The translations under genes and the position numbers were made by a program. From positions 1 to 14,290 of the IMG/VR virus record IMGVR_UViG_2534682108_000014: DNA of 14,290 nucleotides. The stretch is one strand, 5' to 3'. The number at the start of each line of letters is the position of its first letter. The first letter of the stretch is position 1. This DNA comes from a virus (taxonomy: Duplodnaviria > Heunggongvirae > Uroviricota > Caudoviricetes). Below are positions 3,020 to 7,840 of the stretch, piece by piece. The notes below the pieces were generated by a model. It saw only the letters and a list, made by a program, of their open reading frames with translations. It was not told where the DNA came from and searched no databases.

Positions 3020-4455
3020 CAGAATCCTCCTTTCTTCTTGGACTGCGGTTCCTCGCGTTCACGGCGGCGCATTTCAGCAGACTGTTGGTCTGTGTCATAA
3101 ATAGCGCCATTTGCCTGAATGCAATACACCGTGCCGGTATTGCCATGACGATTGAGGCGAAGGATTAGTTCGGTTTCACCAGGTGGAACACTGTCATCAA
3201 AAGCACCTTCACGATGGATCCCCACCCAATAATCGCAATCCTGTTCAATCTGCCCTGTATCTCGTGAGTCACTTGGTAATGGGCGTTTATTGGTTCGGCT
3301 TTCCAGTGCGCGGTTAAGCTGTGTCAGAAGCACAACAACGCAATCAAGCTCTTTGGCAAGGTTCTTCAGTCCTTTGGTGATCATGCCGTAAGCAAGGTCG
3401 TTGCGATCGGCCTTTTCAGCGGTCATTAGTGTCAGGTAATCGACCAGAATCATGCCAACACATCCTTTTTCTCGCTTGATTCGACGGCTTTCGCTGACGA
3501 TTTGAGCCAGAGATAATCCCGGCGTGTCGTCAATGTAAAGCAGGTCGATTTCACTCAAGCGATTGGCTGTTTCGATCGCCCTGTTGAAGTCACCATCGTA
3601 ATCACCCTGATAGCCGTCATCAGCGTCATTTGTCGCCGGAAGGTAAAAAATATTCGGGTTAACACCTGACTTCTGTCCTACCAGTTTTTCCAGTATCTGG
3701 TCACCGGGCATTTCAAGGCTGAACATCAGAGCGGGCTTTTTCTCATGCACTGCGCAGTTGATTGCCATCTGGCTGTATAGCGTCGTTTTCCCCATCTTAG
3801 GGCGAGCGCCAATGACAAACAGAGAGCCTTTCACCAGACCTTTCGGTGACAGCATCCTGTCCAGCGATGGGATCCCTGTGCTCATTCCTCGTTGTTCGCC
3901 TGACGGGTCAAATCGCTTCTCAAGGTCGCTAACCCAGTCTTCCATGACCTCACCAAATGAGCGAAGGCCGCGACGCGATCCGGTTTTTGCATGGTCTGTC
4001 AGTTGCGTGAAAATCGCCTGAATAGCTTCGTACTTCTGCGTTGCAGTCATTCCGTTGCGGGAATAGAGCAATTCCGTCGCTTCAGTCATGCGGTTGATGG
4101 CGTAGCGTTCCATTGCGGTTTCACGAACCTGCATTGCATAGGCAACGATGTTTGCTGCGCTTGGCGTGTTCTTTGCGATCTCAGCGATATAAGCAAAACC
4201 GCCAACAGACACCGTTAACGATTTACGCTCCAGTTCATCGAAAAGCGTCAGGCCATCTACTGGCTTTTGCTCACGGTGCATTCTGGTTATTTCTTCGAAA
4301 ATGATTTTGTGTGGTCGGCTGTAAAATGAATCAGGCTTCAGCATCGCCAGGACTTTCTGGACGCGCTCACTGCTGTCATCATCCAGAAGCAATCCACCAA
4401 TCACCGCCTGCTCTGCCTCGATGCTATGGGGCGGCGCATAAAAATTATCGGTCAT
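3019..4455 (-). CDS. Replicative DNA helicase, DnaB family (phage P22 gene 12-like), about 478 aa
   Basis: Walker A GARPKMGKTT, Walker B-like ILVDYLTLM, and DnaB-type N-terminal SIEAEQAVIGGLLLD. ATG at 4455 is preceded by GAGGGTG; the track start at 4470 is a GTG extension. Confidence 0.93.
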   Translation of the reverse strand: MTDNFYAPPHSIEAEQAVIGGLLLDDDSSERVQKVLAMLKPDSFYSRPHKIIFEEITRMHREQKPVDGLTLFDELERKSLTVSVGGFAYIAEIAKNTPSAANIVAYAMQVRETAMERYAINRMTEATELLYSRNGMTATQKYEAIQAIFTQLTDHAKTGSRRGLRSFGEVMEDWVSDLEKRFDPSGEQRGMSTGIPSLDRMLSPKGLVKGSLFVIGARPKMGKTTLYSQMAINCAVHEKKPALMFSLEMPGDQILEKLVGQKSGVNPNIFYLPATNDADDGYQGDYDGDFNRAIETANRLSEIDLLYIDDTPGLSLAQIVSESRRIKREKGCVGMILVDYLTLMTAEKADRNDLAYGMITKGLKNLAKELDCVVVLLTQLNRALESRTNKRPLPSDSRDTGQIEQDCDYWVGIHREGAFDDSVPPGETELILRLNRHGNTGTVYCIQANGAIYDTDQQSAEMRRREREEPQSKKKGGF

Positions 4456-5335
4456 CGTGTTCACCCTCACGAACTTTCAGGTAGGTATTATCGTTAAGCA
4501 GGAAATCAAATCCCTTTTTGTGCCAGACGGTTCCGCGTTGATGGTTTGGACGCTCTTCGAACATCCATCGGCAATTTTCGCCTACGTAGCTCAAATAATT
4601 TCTCCAGTCCTGCATCGTGAACCCATGCCCGTCAAGCTGGCGGGTTATCACTCCGGCTTTGCGCCAGAACGTTCGGATCTGGTTTTTACGCTTGTCATTC
4701 AGTGCGCGGATTTTTGGCGCTTCAGGAAGGATTTCGTGGTAAGCATCGACAACATCCTGACAGCTAACGGAAGGTTTTTTCTTGTCAGACTTTTTGTCTG
4801 CTGCGGTACTCTCTAATACGTCAGTATTAGAGATATTATTTATATTATTGTTTATGGACAACCGTTGGACAACCGTTGGACAATCTCCGCTGAGAGCCGC
4901 GCCATTACTGGTGTTTGCGTTGGGCAACCGTTGGACAACCGTTGGACAATTTTTTGCCTGAAAATCGTCATATTTAACGATTGTAAACAGGCTAAATTTC
5001 TTCCCCATCGAGCAAATATTAAGCATACCTTTCGACTCAAAAGTCCGTAATAAGCTCCGAACTTTGTTGTCGGGGATGAATGTTTCTCTGACCAGCGACG
5101 GGCGTCCAGTTATCATCTGACCGCGATCAACAGTTATCGGCCCGATATCCGTATTGACGACAGTAGATTCGTGATTAGCCTTGAGGATTAAGTGAAGCCA
5201 AAGATGTACTGCCTGAGAGTCCTTATAGAGCCTGCTGTCCATAAACTGGCGGTGTATAGAGACATACCCCATACTGGATGCCTCCTGATGTTGTACAGGG
5301 TTATGCCTGTAATCAGCTAACTTAACGACGCCCAT
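4445..5335 (-). CDS. Replication initiation protein, lambda O-like (P22 gene 18-like), 296 aa, containing the origin
   Basis: Sits immediately upstream of the DnaB-type helicase; RBS AGGAGTG before ATG 5335. The coding sequence carries ori-type iterons, translated as the repeated peptide CPTVVQRL. Family assignment is by organisation plus recollection of O/gp18 proteins. Confidence 0.85.
   Translation of the reverse strand: MGVVKLADYRHNPVQHQEASSMGYVSIHRQFMDSRLYKDSQAVHLWLHLILKANHESTVVNTDIGPITVDRGQMITGRPSLVRETFIPDNKVRSLLRTFESKGMLNICSMGKKFSLFTIVKYDDFQAKNCPTVVQRLPNANTSNGAALSGDCPTVVQRLSINNNINNISNTDVLESTAADKKSDKKKPSVSCQDVVDAYHEILPEAPKIRALNDKRKNQIRTFWRKAGVITRQLDGHGFTMQDWRNYLSYVGENCRWMFEERPNHQRGTVWHKKGFDFLLNDNTYLKVREGEHDDR
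4815..4950. repeat. Replication origin: AT-rich tract (4815-4852) plus six approximately 11-bp iterons GGACAACCGTT in two clusters (4855-4887 and 4922-4950) inside the O-like gene
   Basis: Direct reading: ggacaaccgtt ggacaaccgtt ggacaatctcc, a 34-bp spacer, then gggcaaccgtt ggacaaccgtt ggacaattttt. Adjacent attagagatattatttatattattgtttat is AT-rich. Layout (iterons then AT-rich, in the O reading direction) mirrors lambda ori. Confidence 0.8.
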
Positions 5336-6170: not shown

Positions 6171-6821
6171 ATGAAAACTCAATTGATGGGAGAGCGCATT
6201 CGCGCTCGGAGAAAAGAACTCAAGATCAGGCAGGCCGCACTTGGAAAGATGGTCGGCGTGTCTAATGTTGCCATATCTCAGTGGGAACGCTCTGAGACAG
6301 AGCCAAATGGAGAGAATCTTCTCGCCCTGGCTAATGCGTTGAAGTGTTCCCCTGACTATCTGATGAAAGGAGAGGAAAGTCTTTCAAACATTGCCTATCA
6401 CAGTAGGCATGATCCAAGAGGGTCATACCCTCTGATTAGCTGGGTGAGCGCAGGATGCTGGATGGAAGCTGTAGAACCATATCATAAGCGTGCAATAGAT
6501 AACTGGTACGATACAACCGTAGACTGTTCAGAAGATTCGTTTTGGTTGGACGTGAAGGGAGACTCAATGACGGCTCCGGCCGGTCTCAGTATCCCTGAAG
6601 GAATGATAATACTCGTCGATCCTGAAGTAGAGCCGCGTAACGGGAAACTGGTAGTTGCAAAGCTCGAAGGAGAAAACGAGGCAACTTTCAAGAAGTTAGT
6701 TATTGATGCAGGCAGGAAGTTTCTAAAACCACTTAACCCACAATATCCGATGATCGAGATCAACGGAAACTGCAAAATCATCGGCGTAGTTGTCGATGCA
6801 AAACTAGCAAACCTTCCATAA
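6171..6821 (+). CDS. c2: Prophage repressor, P22 C2-type (216 aa), LexA-like autocleavable
   Basis: MKTQLMGERIRARRKELKIRQAALGKMVGVSNVAISQWERSETEPNGENLLALANAL... matches P22 C2 near-identically from memory and has the same length. N-terminal HTH, Ala-Gly cleavage region, and C-terminal S24-type GDSM serine with a downstream lysine. Confidence 0.96.
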   Translation: MKTQLMGERIRARRKELKIRQAALGKMVGVSNVAISQWERSETEPNGENLLALANALKCSPDYLMKGEESLSNIAYHSRHDPRGSYPLISWVSAGCWMEAVEPYHKRAIDNWYDTTVDCSEDSFWLDVKGDSMTAPAGLSIPEGMIILVDPEVEPRNGKLVVAKLEGENEATFKKLVIDAGRKFLKPLNPQYPMIEINGNCKIIGVVVDAKLANLP

Positions 6822-6846
6822 GGGGGCATTCGCCCCTTTTTTTTAT
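6822..6846 (+). terminator. Rho-independent terminator downstream of c2
   Basis: GGGGC-ATTC-GCCCC followed by TTTTTTTT, starting 1 nt after the c2 stop codon. Confidence 0.8.
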
Positions 6847-6887
6847 TTCCTTTAAAAATCAAAGCCAAACTTAAGTTACGAAAGAAA

Positions 6888-6940
6888 ATTTAAGTTTTCT
6901 TCAAAAATACTCTTGACCATTAATTAAAGAGATCTTAAAT
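6888..6940. promoter_or_regulatory. OL/PL region: P22-type operator at 6923-6940, weaker site at 6888-6905, and PL promoter (plus strand)
   Basis: ATTAAAGagatCTTAAAT (6923-6940) is a perfect fit to the operator pattern; ATTTAAGttttCTTCAAA (6888-6905) has one mismatch. PL reads -35 TTGACC (6913-6918) and -10 TTAAAT (6935-6940) with 16-bp spacing, the -10 lying inside the operator. Confidence 0.65.
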
Positions 6941-6986
6941 TTAAGCCATCAGCAGGACGCTGGTAGCCAAACGGAACAGATTGGCA

Positions 6987-7027
6987 GGCTCTTTAACATT
7001 GATGGGATTGTCCCGCCGAAATGCGGG
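6987..7027 (+). promoter_or_regulatory. nutL: boxA (6987-6998) plus boxB hairpin (7012-7027) in the PL leader
   Basis: GGCTCTTTAACA, a 13-nt spacer, then CCCGCCGAAATGCGGG. The boxB is identical to the nutR one on the other strand, and the boxA core GCTCTTTAACA is shared. Confidence 0.62.
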
Positions 7028-7339
7028 AACCAAAGAGTAGTTGGCTTTGGGGTGACGTGAAGTGCAGCTGCACGACGGCAACCGGAAGATAAGCACCCGG
7101 CGCGTCACCGCCAAAGTCAATTCCATAGGCGAAATGCAGCCGCCAAACACAGCCAATGCTGCACATGCAACAGGAGGATTTATGTGAATGCATAACTTCA
7201 AAACCGAGGTTAATTAAATCTCTCGATCCGAGCATTGACCTATTAGGTGGCGAGATGCTCTTTCTGCCCCTCAGTTCGAGGGGCCAGAAACCACTTTGCA
7301 ATCACTATCAATTCCAAAGTTGTTTCATCGGAGGTCAAC

Positions 7340-7612
7340 ATGACAGTAGTCATTACATATCTGGCTGACGATAACGCCAGAAATCGCCGCAGAGCACGCA
7401 GACAGGCTCAACGTGAACAGGCAATGCAAGAGCAGCGACTGACGCGAAAAATTGCGCTAAAGCTCTCTGGTTGCGTCAGAGCAGATAAAGCAGCATCACT
7501 CGGAAGCCTTCGCTGTAAGGAAGAAGATGAACGCAGTGGAAGTATTTGCCTGCCAAACGTAGCCATTTACGCGGCAGGATACCGGAAATCAAAACAACTG
7601 ACGGCGAGGTAA
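7340..7612 (+). CDS. 24: N-like transcription antiterminator (P22 gene 24-like), 90 aa
   Basis: From ATG 7340 (RBS GGAGG): MTVVITYLADDNARNRRRARRQAQREQ... with an N-terminal arginine-rich motif, and a C-terminus LPNVAIYAAGYRKSKQLTAR resembling P22 gp24 as I recall it. Lies downstream of PL/nutL. The track start at 7247 is an upstream extension. Confidence 0.85.
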   Translation: MTVVITYLADDNARNRRRARRQAQREQAMQEQRLTRKIALKLSGCVRADKAASLGSLRCKEEDERSGSICLPNVAIYAAGYRKSKQLTAR

Positions 7613-7615
7613 GTG

Positions 7616-7840
7616 ATGAATCAGACATACATTCCATCATGCTTGAGAAATCTGCCAAAGCAGAAAGCAAAGCCCCGCAAGCAAGCCATAAAGGACGCTA
7701 AGGCAGAGGTTATTGATCAAGCAATACAATTGCTCAGGGAGGAGTTAAGAAGTGGCAAGCTCGAAGGAATGATGATGCCATATCAGCGCGGATATCTATC
7801 GGCGATTAGTAAGTTGGAAGTATTGAAGAGTGAATTATGA
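7616..7840 (+). CDS. Hypothetical protein (74 aa), lysine-rich N-terminus
   Basis: ATG at 7616 begins 4 nt after the N stop, with GAGG 7 nt upstream. Same strand as the PL operon. No family recognised. Confidence 0.55.
   Translation: MNQTYIPSCLRNLPKQKAKPRKQAIKDAKAEVIDQAIQLLREELRSGKLEGMMMPYQRGYLSAISKLEVLKSEL

What the first reader, a model, noticed from the sequence alone, without database searches (positions are those of the whole stretch)
6947..7340. Long, highly structured leader upstream of the N-like gene, including a perfect 12-bp palindrome
About 390 nt separate the PL start from the N-like ATG, longer than the roughly 220 nt I recall for lambda. Beyond nutL, the leader holds a perfect palindrome GTGCAGCTGCAC (7063-7074) flanked by the inverted 7-mers GGTGACG (7051-7057) and CGTCACC (7103-7109), and a GC-rich hairpin GCCCCTC-agttc-GAGGGGC (7266-7284) without a U-tract. 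These could form an RNase III or translational-control structure, or a protein-binding site. ORFs predicted here on both strands lack convincing RBS support.
Basis: seen in the sequence. Interest (0 to 1): 0.4.

Follow-up and report, generated by a model that had tools for sequence, protein, structure and literature searches.

The report
N-gene leader with an extra cassette
This is the untranslated leader RNA of a lambda-like prophage's N gene: the palindrome sits at the tip of the hairpin that matches lambda's RNase III-cleaved leader hairpin, and the extra length is an undescribed 204-nt cassette that is also found in plasmids.

Summary
The palindrome is at 7062-7073 and the N ATG at 7340, each one base off. 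A perfect 12-bp palindrome is no rarer than chance here (3 seen, 3.4 expected), but the region folds far better than shuffled sequence (z about -4 to -5).

The leader (6948-7339, 392 nt) has three parts:
- **nutL**, identical to the site annotated in HK620.
- **An 80-nt hairpin (7041-7120).** Its lower stem matches lambda's N-leader hairpin and covaries across ten leader types. The palindrome and the GGTGACG/CGTCACC repeat are its apical branch and upper stem.
- **A discrete 204-nt cassette (7121-7324)**, absent from HK620, phage 21, lambda and P22. This explains the extra length.

It occurs in 163 of 5,426 E. coli genomes, in leaders with several boxB and N types, and in MOBH plasmids. It matches no Rfam family.

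The RNase III and translational-control reading is supported by homology. The cassette's function is inferred only.

The parts
6913..6948 (+). PL promoter (-35 TTGACC 6913-6918, -10 TAAATT 6936-6941) and inferred transcription start at A6948
   Evidence: Promoter scan. The start is placed by alignment with the pL features annotated in HK620 and phage 21.
6987..7028 (+). nutL: boxA GCTCTTTAACA 6988-6998; boxB hairpin UCCCGC-CGAAAU-GCGGGA 7011-7028
   Evidence: Identical to the nutL annotated in HK620 (L003 847-888). The N protein downstream matches Pfam N_peptide.
7041..7120 (+). Hairpin 1, homologous to the lambda N-leader hairpin.
   Evidence: Folds, z = -4.7, shared lower-stem sequence with lambda, covariation 96% paired with 8 of 15 double changes.
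7062..7073 (+). The 12-nt palindrome, forming apical branch hairpin GUGC-AGCU-GCAC of hairpin 1
   Evidence: Phage 21 has UUGC-AGCU-ACAA: one compensatory change and one broken pair. L033 has a 3-nt deletion here.
7082..7100 (+). Second apical branch of hairpin 1: CCGG-AAGAUAAGCAC-CCGG
   Evidence: Fold. The loop is invariant while the stem changes to UCGAG / CUCGA in phage 21.
7121..7324 (+). 204-nt accessory cassette, absent from HK620, phage 21, lambda and P22
   Evidence: Alignments. Covariance model R1 hits. z = -4.0. No Rfam match.
7135..7163 (+). Cassette hairpin Ha: UGCAGC 7135-7140 / GCUGCA 7158-7163, with a variable loop
   Evidence: The stem is invariant in the phage copies. A different hairpin sits at the same place in L096 and in the plasmids.
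7172..7217 (+). AGGAGG (7172-7177), AUG 7182, UGA 7185, AUG 7188, then 8 codons and UAA 7215-7217, all in one frame (M*MHNFKTEVN*). The small hairpin 7180-7185 / 7190-7195 encloses the start-stop
   Evidence: The 18-mer AGGAGGATTTATGTGAAT is exact in every phage copy, including those found through other motifs. The stop is UAA in the plasmids and L096.
7230..7260 (+). Cassette hairpin Hb: outer stem GAGCA / UGCUC 7230-7234 / 7256-7260, inner stem 7235-7240 / 7246-7250; followed by the conserved pyrimidine tract CUCUUUCU 7258-7265
   Evidence: The outer helix is 100% paired with 3 of 5 pairs doubly changed. The inner helix has 11 doubly changed sequences at each of two pairs.
7266..7284 (+). 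It has no U-tract and is part of the cassette
   Evidence: The CCCC / GGGG core is invariant. The closing and distal pairs covary (G-C to U-A; UC / GA against GUC / GGC against ACC / GGU).
7287..7326 (+). Terminal cassette hairpin with 16-nt arms, ending 3 nt before the N Shine-Dalgarno
   Evidence: (I2). C-G changes to U-A in the P22-type copies. L096 has a differently sequenced 16-nt-arm hairpin at the same place.
7330..7612 (+). N Shine-Dalgarno GGAGG 7330-7334 and N gene 7340-7612 (90 aa)
   Evidence: PF25694, E = 1.1e-15. 97.8% DNA identity to HK140 N over the matched stretch.

Best explanation
The region is the PL-transcribed 5' leader RNA of the N antiterminator gene of a 21/HK620-type lambdoid prophage of E. 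coli. It works at the RNA level and has three modules.

1. **nutL (6987-7028).** This loads N and the Nus factors onto RNA polymerase.

2. **The 80-nt hairpin 7041-7120.** It is the homologue of the lambda N-leader hairpin. By homology it is an RNase III substrate. Cleavage in the lower stem would detach the nutL-bound N/Nus complex from the N ribosome-binding site and so tune N translation, as in lambda. This step is inferred, not shown here.

3. **A 204-nt accessory cassette (7121-7324)** inserted between that hairpin and the N Shine-Dalgarno. After cleavage it would form the 5' UTR of the N mRNA. It contains a perfect ribosome-binding site, an AUG-UGA start-stop fused in frame to a 9-codon mini-ORF, and four hairpins maintained by compensatory changes.

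I commit to the cassette being a cis-acting, ribosome-engaging post-transcriptional control element. Ribosomes loading at 7172-7190 and the hairpin array would together set how accessible the N Shine-Dalgarno is, or how stable the N mRNA is. Nothing tested here distinguishes those two effects. This last step is inference from conservation and anatomy only.
For: **Context**
- cI, PL, nutL and N lie in lambda order. N matches Pfam N_peptide.
- No promoter or terminator consensus lies inside the leader.

**Hairpin 1**
- It shares its lower-stem sequence with lambda.
- Lambda, 21, HK620, P22 and six metagenomic leader types all fold into a long hairpin on this base with unrelated apices.
- 96% of cells are paired, 8 of 15 pairs have double changes, and the covariation score is 0.52 against 0.03-0.08 for slid controls.
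- The P22 sncRNA P22B ends at the hairpin base, 16 nt before gene 24.
- The literature states that nutL-bound N represses N translation and that the intervening lambda sequence is highly structured (PMC5725501).

**Cassette**
- It is a clean presence/absence block.
- 163 of 5,426 E. coli genomes carry it, in alleles about 72% identical to each other.
- It is found with HK620-type boxB, with P22-type boxB and a gene-24-like N, with at least two further leader/N types, and ahead of a different ORF.
- 93.6% of cells are paired, 10 of 43 pairs have double changes, and 0 of 500 shuffles reach the observed values; slid controls give 37-44% paired.
- Model R1 finds untrained plasmid copies at E about 1e-6 to 1e-7.
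- The 18-mer carrying the ribosome-binding site and start-stop is exact in all copies, including those found through other motifs.
- The stop varies between UGA and UAA while remaining a stop.
- E. coli start-stops can bind ribosomes and attenuate expression (bioRxiv 10.1101/520783).
Against: - No cleavage, ribosome-binding or expression data exist for this leader.
- HK620, 21, lambda and P22 do without the cassette, so it is not essential.
- The most common E. coli allele (CUS-3 type) has lost the second AUG (now AUA) and has a premature stop. The mini-peptide is therefore dispensable there.
- Plasmid copies are not followed by an adjacent gene start on the same strand. That fits an RNA-stability or anti-polarity role at least as well as control of one downstream ribosome-binding site.
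- The predicted partner of the N Shine-Dalgarno changes with the fragment folded: 7219-7227, 7258-7261 or 7362-7369. None of these pairings is conserved in the other alleles.
- The covariation rests on about 5-6 independent lineages. The hairpin-1 arms used in alignment A4 were cut out by hand.
Confidence: 0.6

Rival explanations
1. The cassette is a neutral mosaic scar or a selfish insertion. On this view it is a leftover of illegitimate recombination between phage leaders, for example a partial duplication of the hairpin-1 3' arm plus a relic of an N translation start, with no function of its own.
For: - In P22-type leaders it is flanked by a direct repeat, CAAAGCCATTTCAC, that occurs once in P22 itself. 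In the window CCAAAGT is repeated at 7111-7117 and 7314-7320.
- ACAGGAGGATTTATG...ATGCA resembles lambda's N start ACAGGAGAATCCAGATGGATGCA.
- The CUS-3 record labels the whole cI-N interval a 'boundary sequence'.
- Short-leader phages are viable, and the CUS-3-type allele has a decayed mini-ORF.
Against: - Alleles only about 72% identical keep all helices through compensatory changes.
- The same architecture recurs with almost unrelated sequence in L096 and in two MOBH plasmid families.
- The start-stop 18-mer is invariant, and where the stop differs it is still a stop.
Confidence: 0.2
2. The cassette is functional, but it protects the transcript rather than switching N translation. On this view ribosomes on the start-stop and mini-ORF, together with the hairpins, block Rho loading or RNase E attack in a long untranslated stretch. 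That would act as an anti-polarity element or as a 5' stabiliser of the RNase III-processed N mRNA.
For: - Plasmid copies sit in 800-1000-nt untranslated gaps inside long co-directional gene arrays. One family has two units in tandem, and neither family has an adjacent downstream start codon.
- After a lambda-like RNase III cut, the N mRNA here would begin with hairpin Ha and then a strong ribosome-binding site (inference).
Against: Nothing measured addresses this. In phages the cassette always ends 3 nt from the N Shine-Dalgarno with a conserved hairpin, which suggests a link to that ribosome-binding site.
Confidence: 0.2
3. The palindrome and flanking 7-mers form a DNA site for a protein such as a repressor, another regulator or a restriction enzyme.
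For: It is a perfect 12-bp palindrome containing CAGCTG.
Against: - Palindromes of this length are at chance frequency.
- It lies in transcribed DNA about 115 bp downstream of the promoter.
- It is absent from all other leader types, which have unrelated apices, and L033 has a 3-nt deletion in it.
- The 7-mers covary as RNA pairs.
Confidence: 0.03
4. The leader encodes a protein: the 41-aa ORF 7062-7187 that is annotated in HK140, or the minus-strand ORF that PGAP annotates as 129 aa in UTI89.
For: Both are annotated as hypothetical proteins in public records.
Against: - Neither has a Pfam match.
- 2-nt indels between the alleles break the plus-strand frame.
- The UTI89 ORF aligns to the window, L051 and L067 only in two different frames.
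- The 41-aa ORF runs through hairpin 1 and ends at the start-stop UGA.
Confidence: 0.03
5. The GC-rich hairpin 7266-7284 is a transcription terminator or attenuator upstream of N.
For: It is a strong 7-bp GC stem with an invariant CCCC / GGGG core.
Against: There is no U-tract on either strand in any allele, and the terminator scan did not call it. It would also stop transcription of N before any N protein exists.
Confidence: 0.04

Closest known systems
Phage lambda N leader: nutL plus the RNase III-sensitive hairpin (Steege 1987; Wilson 1997, 2002; cited in PMC5371410 and PMC5725501)
   Same: The order is the same: PL, then the conserved 5' end AUCAGCAGGACGC, boxA/boxB, a long hairpin, the Shine-Dalgarno and N. 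The lower stem of the hairpin is the same sequence, GGCUUUGGGGUG... / ...CACCnCCAAAG, with a one-nucleotide bulge on the 3' strand.
   Different: - The apex is unrelated: here a three-way junction with the palindrome hairpin.
- boxB and N are of HK620 type.
- In lambda the hairpin's 3' arm ends about 13 nt before the Shine-Dalgarno. Here 204 nt of cassette lie in between.
HK620 and phage 21 N leaders (188 and 190 nt)
   Same: In HK620 the nutL, hairpin 1 (including the palindrome) and the N ribosome-binding site are almost identical to the window. Phage 21 has covarying versions.
   Different: Both lack 7121-7324 entirely.
HK140 and CUS-3 leaders
   Same: Both carry the same cassette. HK140 is 99.1% identical over 7118-7330 and CUS-3 is 72.1% identical.
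   Different: In both records the cassette is unannotated or mis-annotated: a 41-aa hypothetical protein in HK140 and a 'boundary sequence' in CUS-3.
P22 sncRNA P22B (PMC13397905)
   Same: It is a stable 96-nt RNA made of the apex and 3' arm of the P22 version of hairpin 1, ending 16 nt before gene 24. This shows that the leader is cut or ends at the hairpin base.
   Different: P22 has no cassette, and neither the nuclease nor a function has been established.
Bacterial start-stop sites and leader-peptide uORFs (Meydan et al., bioRxiv 10.1101/520783)
   Same: A strong Shine-Dalgarno followed by an AUG and an immediate stop. Such sites bind ribosomes and can attenuate expression.
   Different: - Here the site lies in a 5' leader, not inside a gene.
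- It is fused in frame to AUG plus a 9-codon ORF.
- It is embedded in a conserved hairpin array.
- It is shared between phages and plasmids.

Membership tests
Lambdoid nutL site | boxA-like sequence followed by a boxB hairpin on the PL transcript, upstream of an N gene | tested here: met
   GCTCTTTAACA 6988-6998 and hairpin 7011-7028 are identical to the nutL annotated in HK620. N matches PF25694.
Lambdoid nutL site | Binds the cognate N protein and Nus factors and confers antitermination | not testable with these tools
   This needs genetics or biochemistry.
Lambda-type N-leader RNase III hairpin | Long hairpin between nutL and the N start whose lower stem is homologous to lambda's | tested here: met
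   GGCTTTGGGGTG... / ...CACCnCCAAAG is shared with lambda. The position is the same in all leader types.
Lambda-type N-leader RNase III hairpin | About 20 bp of double-stranded RNA maintained by selection | tested here: met
   10 bp, a bulge, then 9 bp. 96% paired, with 8 of 15 pairs compensatory. The arms were excised by hand.
Lambda-type N-leader RNase III hairpin | The 3' arm lies next to the N Shine-Dalgarno, so that cleavage remodels the ribosome-binding site | tested here: not met
   In the window the 3' arm ends at 7120 and the Shine-Dalgarno is at 7330. The gap is about 13-17 nt in lambda, HK620 and P22.
Lambda-type N-leader RNase III hairpin | Cleaved by RNase III | not testable with these tools
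   The only indirect evidence is the ends of P22B in P22.
Any curated RNA family (Rfam 15) | Covariance-model match | tested here: not met
   There are no matches at E <= 1 in the window, and none over the cassette in L039, L093, L096 or L100 at E <= 0.1.
Intrinsic terminator (for the GC hairpin) | GC-rich stem followed by a U-tract | tested here: not met
   No T-run follows 7284 on either strand, and the scan did not call it.
Start-stop element | [quoted passage not shown] | tested here: met
   AGGAGG, 4 nt, AUG, UGA. It is invariant in the phage copies, and the stop is UAA in the plasmids and L096.
Start-stop element | Ribosome occupancy and an effect on the downstream gene | not testable with these tools
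   This needs toeprinting, Ribo-seq or reporter fusions.
Leader-peptide (uORF) translational attenuator | A short ORF conserved as an ORF among relatives | tested here: inconclusive
   - Peptides seen: MHNFKTEVN (window), MHNFKTE/QIN (P22-type), MPTFNFEIN (L067), MHKFKSESK (plasmid), MRTRNFKSESM (plasmid, no internal stop).
- They align codon for codon.
- The ORF is lost in the CUS-3-type allele (AUA, and a premature UGA).
- A scan for the peptide motif found no further members.
Leader-peptide (uORF) translational attenuator | Mutually exclusive structures, chosen by ribosome position, that mask or unmask the downstream ribosome-binding site | tested here: inconclusive
   Near-isoenergetic alternatives exist in the window (-30.1, -28.0 and -27.0 kcal/mol). 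However, the predicted partner of the N Shine-Dalgarno depends on the fragment folded and is not conserved in other alleles.

The most novel reading that the evidence does not exclude
The 204-nt block is a previously undescribed, horizontally exchanged RNA leader cassette. It consists of a hairpin, a perfect ribosome-binding site, a start-stop fused in frame to a roughly 9-codon mini-ORF, and three further hairpins. It is shared by the N-gene leaders of lambdoid phages with several boxB and N types and by untranslated gaps in long operons of MOBH conjugative plasmids. It would act as a ribosome-sensing switch or protector for early gene expression when a mobile element enters a new cell.
Probability: 0.3. 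Interest if true: 0.7.

Novelty: new variant of a known kind. Interest (0 to 1): 0.45.

Why it matters
N is the first gene a lambdoid phage expresses. In lambda, the amount of N made, set by nutL-dependent autorepression and RNase III processing of the leader, feeds into the lysis-lysogeny decision.

About 3% of complete E. coli genomes (163 of 5,426) carry prophages in which that well-studied control region has an extra conserved cassette with a start-stop and mini-ORF. If the cassette is functional, it adds a ribosome-dependent layer to a textbook circuit. It would also be a natural, transferable 5'-UTR module found in both phages and conjugative plasmids.

Phage HK140 carries a 99.1% identical copy, so this can be tested directly.

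If the cassette is not functional, the finding is simply the expected N leader with a mosaic insertion.

Tried and rejected
- **Rfam:** scans of the window and of four related loci found nothing over the leader.
- **Genome scan:** the one-genome-per-species scan for the 18-mer returned only unrelated Firmicutes and metagenome-assembled-genome hits.
- **Unrelated hits:** the extra loci from the hairpin-Ha pattern (L084-L091) are coding regions, and L034, L071 and L076 are chance 18-mer hits. L095 is also chance.
- **Peptide-motif scan:** the scan GGAGG-N12-20-AAMTTYAAAWCNGAG gave 25 new loci, none of which model R1 recognised.
- **Long-range pairing:** the pairing of the boxA-boxB spacer with 7300-7312 seen in the window's minimum-energy fold was rejected, because that loop sequence is replaced by an A-run in the CUS-3-type allele.
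- **Anti-SD models:** three candidate partners for the N Shine-Dalgarno (7219-7227, 7258-7261, 7319-7326) could not be ranked, and none is conserved.
- **Coding explanations:** rejected.
- **Internal promoter or terminator:** none found.
- **Papers:** Wilson 1997 and 2002 are not held, so the lambda cleavage positions (about +88 and +197, in the lower stem) are from my memory only.
Full report
**Context**

The window is a lambdoid prophage immunity region read leftward. A LexA-family cI lies at 6171-6821 with its terminator at 6820-6840. PL has TTGACC at 6913-6918 and TAAATT at 6936-6941. A 90-aa N protein is encoded at 7340-7612 and matches Pfam N_peptide at E = 1.1e-15. The closest phages are HK140 (97.8% identity over the matched stretch), CUS-3, HK620 and phage 21. 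1,376 of 5,426 complete E. coli genomes hold a match to 6820-7620. Aligning to the pL start annotated in phage 21 places the transcription start at A6948. The leader is therefore 392 nt, against 222 nt in lambda, 188 nt in HK620 and 190 nt in phage 21.

**Checking the observation**

- A perfect 12-bp palindrome is not unusual: the window has 3 and shuffles give 3.4.
- The folding is unusual. The leader has z = -4.65, 7041-7120 has z = -4.7 and 7121-7326 has z = -4.0.
- Rfam has no match.

**What the palindrome belongs to**

Positions 7041-7120 fold into one hairpin:
- a 10-bp lower stem, 7041-7050 / 7111-7120;
- a bulged G7110;
- a 9-bp upper stem, 7051-7059 / 7101-7109, which contains GGTGACG / CGTCACC;
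- a three-way junction whose branches are the palindrome hairpin (GUGC-AGCU-GCAC) and CCGG-AAGAUAAGCAC-CCGG.

The lower-stem sequence is the same as in the lambda N leader: GGCTTTGGGGTGTGTG...CACACACCACCAAAGC. Lambda, 21, HK620, P22 and six metagenomic leader types all have a long hairpin on this base, with unrelated apices 40 to about 130 nt long.

I built an alignment of the two arms from ten types. In it 96% of cells are paired, 8 of 15 pairs show changes on both sides, and the covariation score is 0.52, against 0.03-0.08 when the partners are slid. I excised the arms by hand, which favours pairing.

From my own knowledge, this lambda hairpin is the RNase III processing site of the N leader, and cleavage relieves nutL-dependent repression of N translation. 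The primary papers (Steege 1987; Wilson 1997, 2002) are cited in PMC5371410 and PMC5725501 but are not held here. [quoted passage not shown] In P22, a 96-nt RNA called P22B covers the apex and 3' arm of this hairpin and ends 16 nt before gene 24 (PMC13397905).

The palindrome itself is allele-specific. Phage 21 has UUGCAGCUACAA, and L033 carries a 3-nt deletion in it. It is therefore a branch of the RNA hairpin, not a conserved site.

**Why the leader is long**

Alignment shows that 7121-7324 (204 nt) is simply absent from HK620 and phage 21. They join ...CCAAAGTCAA directly to TCATCGGAGG. In the phage collection only HK140 (99.1% identical) and CUS-3 (72.1%) carry the block. 163 of 5,426 E. 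coli genomes carry it, in three main identity classes (about 98-100%, 92% and 72%) that include recombinants.

IMG/VR scans with three different motifs recovered the same roughly 65 prophage loci. The block occurs in these settings:
- with HK620-type boxB;
- with P22-type boxB (GCGCTGACAAAGCGC) and a gene-24-like N (L022, L051, L068, L082);
- with another leader type (L067);
- in a distant phage with a different N-like protein (L096);
- ahead of an extra ORF (L048).

**Anatomy of the cassette (window coordinates)**

- Hairpin Ha, 7135-7140 / 7158-7163.
- AGGAGG 7172-7177, then AUG 7182, UGA 7185, AUG 7188, eight codons and UAA 7215-7217, all in one frame (M*MHNFKTEVN*).
- Hairpin Hb, 7230-7260.
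- A conserved pyrimidine tract, 7258-7265.
- A hairpin with 16-nt arms, 7287-7326, ending 3 nt before the N Shine-Dalgarno.

On 28 distinct sequences, 93.6% of cells are paired and 10 of 43 pairs have double changes. No shuffle out of 500 reaches the observed values, and slid controls give 37-44% paired. Hb is the best supported: the outer helix is 100% paired with 3 of 5 pairs compensatory. The sequences come from only about 5-6 independent lineages, so these counts overstate the number of independent events.

The 18-mer AGGAGGATTTATGTGAAT is exact in every copy, including those retrieved through the Ha motif or the terminal-hairpin motif.

**The cassette outside phages**

A weak BLAST hit led to MOBH conjugative plasmids of Klebsiella, Citrobacter, Serratia and E. 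coli (11 PLSDB records). These have AGGAGGATTTATG-TAA-ATG CAT AAA TTT AAA TCA GAG TCT AAA TAA, an Hb with GAACA / UGUUC, and GCCCCTC...GAGGGGC.

A second family of large MOBH plasmids (100 records) has two tandem units. These units were not used to train covariance model R1, which still finds the second unit full-length at E about 1e-6 to 1e-7. That unit has an uninterrupted ORF, MRTRNF(K/T)SESM. It aligns codon for codon with the window's AUG-UGA-AUG-CAU-AAC-UUC-AAA-ACC-GAG-GUU-AAU-UAA.

The start-stop therefore looks like a leader ORF with a stop fixed at codon 2 and a restart at codon 3. The stop is UGA in most of the phage copies and UAA in the plasmids and L096. In the CUS-3-type allele the restart codon is AUA and a premature UGA follows, so the peptide is dispensable there while the start-stop is kept.

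**Mechanism**

What is shown: the RNA-level architecture, its conservation and its distribution.

What is inferred by homology: nutL function, and RNase III cleavage in the lower stem of hairpin 1. Such cleavage would leave the cassette as the 5' UTR of the N mRNA.

What is inferred from anatomy: the cassette engages ribosomes at its perfect ribosome-binding site, and with its hairpins sets either the accessibility of the N ribosome-binding site or the fate of the transcript. E. coli start-stops do bind ribosomes and can attenuate expression (bioRxiv 10.1101/520783).

I could not fix the switch:
- The predicted partner of the N Shine-Dalgarno is 7219-7227 in the processed RNA (P about 0.3-0.45), 7258-7261 in a local fold and 7362-7369 in the full leader.
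- Three alternative local states lie within 3 kcal/mol of each other.
- None of these pairings is conserved in the other alleles.

The plasmid copies lack an adjacent downstream start codon. That keeps an anti-Rho or RNA-stabiliser role as a serious rival.

**Rejected readings**

- The 41-aa ORF annotated in HK140 and the 129-aa antisense ORF annotated in UTI89 are frame-broken between alleles and match no protein family.
- The GC hairpin has no U-tract.
- There is no internal promoter.
- The palindrome is not a conserved DNA site.

**Verdict**

The finding as written is a correct description of a known kind of element: an N leader carrying a homologue of lambda's RNase III hairpin. The new element is the conserved, exchangeable 204-nt cassette with a start-stop and mini-ORF, which has no Rfam match, is not functionally annotated in the HK140 or CUS-3 records, and did not turn up in my literature searches.

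Noticed in passing
L039, L050, L060, L061, L072, L042 (leader, immediately after boxB): A further insertion of about 250 nt sits between boxB and hairpin 1. It carries ACAGGAGGTGCCGTA-ATG-GTG-CAC-TAA, a strong ribosome-binding site with a 3-codon ORF, and is GC-rich. Neither R1 nor Rfam matches it.
   Followed up: partly
window 7082-7100: The second apical branch of hairpin 1 has the loop AAGAUAAGCAC, which is invariant between HK620-type and phage 21 leaders. Its stem covaries (CCGG / CCGG against UCGAG / CUCGA), which suggests the loop is recognised by sequence.
   Followed up: partly
L048 (minus strand, about 3100-3340): Here the cassette is followed by a different small ORF (ATGTCTAGTCGT...), and the N gene comes only about 250 nt later. 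The cassette can therefore front a gene other than N.
   Followed up: no
L100 10840-11110; L101 4001-4331: Large MOBH plasmids of Citrobacter and Klebsiella (100 PLSDB records) carry two cassette-like units in tandem, in an 800-nt gap within a long array of co-directional hypothetical genes. The first unit has a start-stop (ATG TAA ATG CTC...). The second has an uninterrupted 11-codon ORF.
   Followed up: partly
window 7340-7353: The N start codon lies in a small hairpin, AUGAC-AGUA-GUCAU, predicted with pair probability of about 0.74-0.96.
   Followed up: no
window 6860-6945: Several overlapping inverted repeats and a second perfect 12-bp palindrome, CTTAAATTTAAG (6934-6945), overlap PL. These are presumably the OL operators of this immunity type.
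   Followed up: no
L104 424-813 (E. coli UTI89): RefSeq annotates a 129-aa hypothetical protein antisense to the whole N leader. It is frame-broken in the other alleles and is probably a spurious gene call.
   Followed up: yes
L051, L068, L082 against P22 (L103 433-449): In P22-type leaders the cassette is flanked by a 14-nt direct repeat, CAAAGCCATTTCAC, that is present once in P22. This is compatible with insertion or duplication at the 3' arm of hairpin 1.
   Followed up: partly
L093 5270-5698: In one plasmid family the cassette lies convergent to a hok/sok locus. The sok RNA matches Rfam RF01794 (E = 9e-23), and the hok terminator is at 5270-5301.
   Followed up: no
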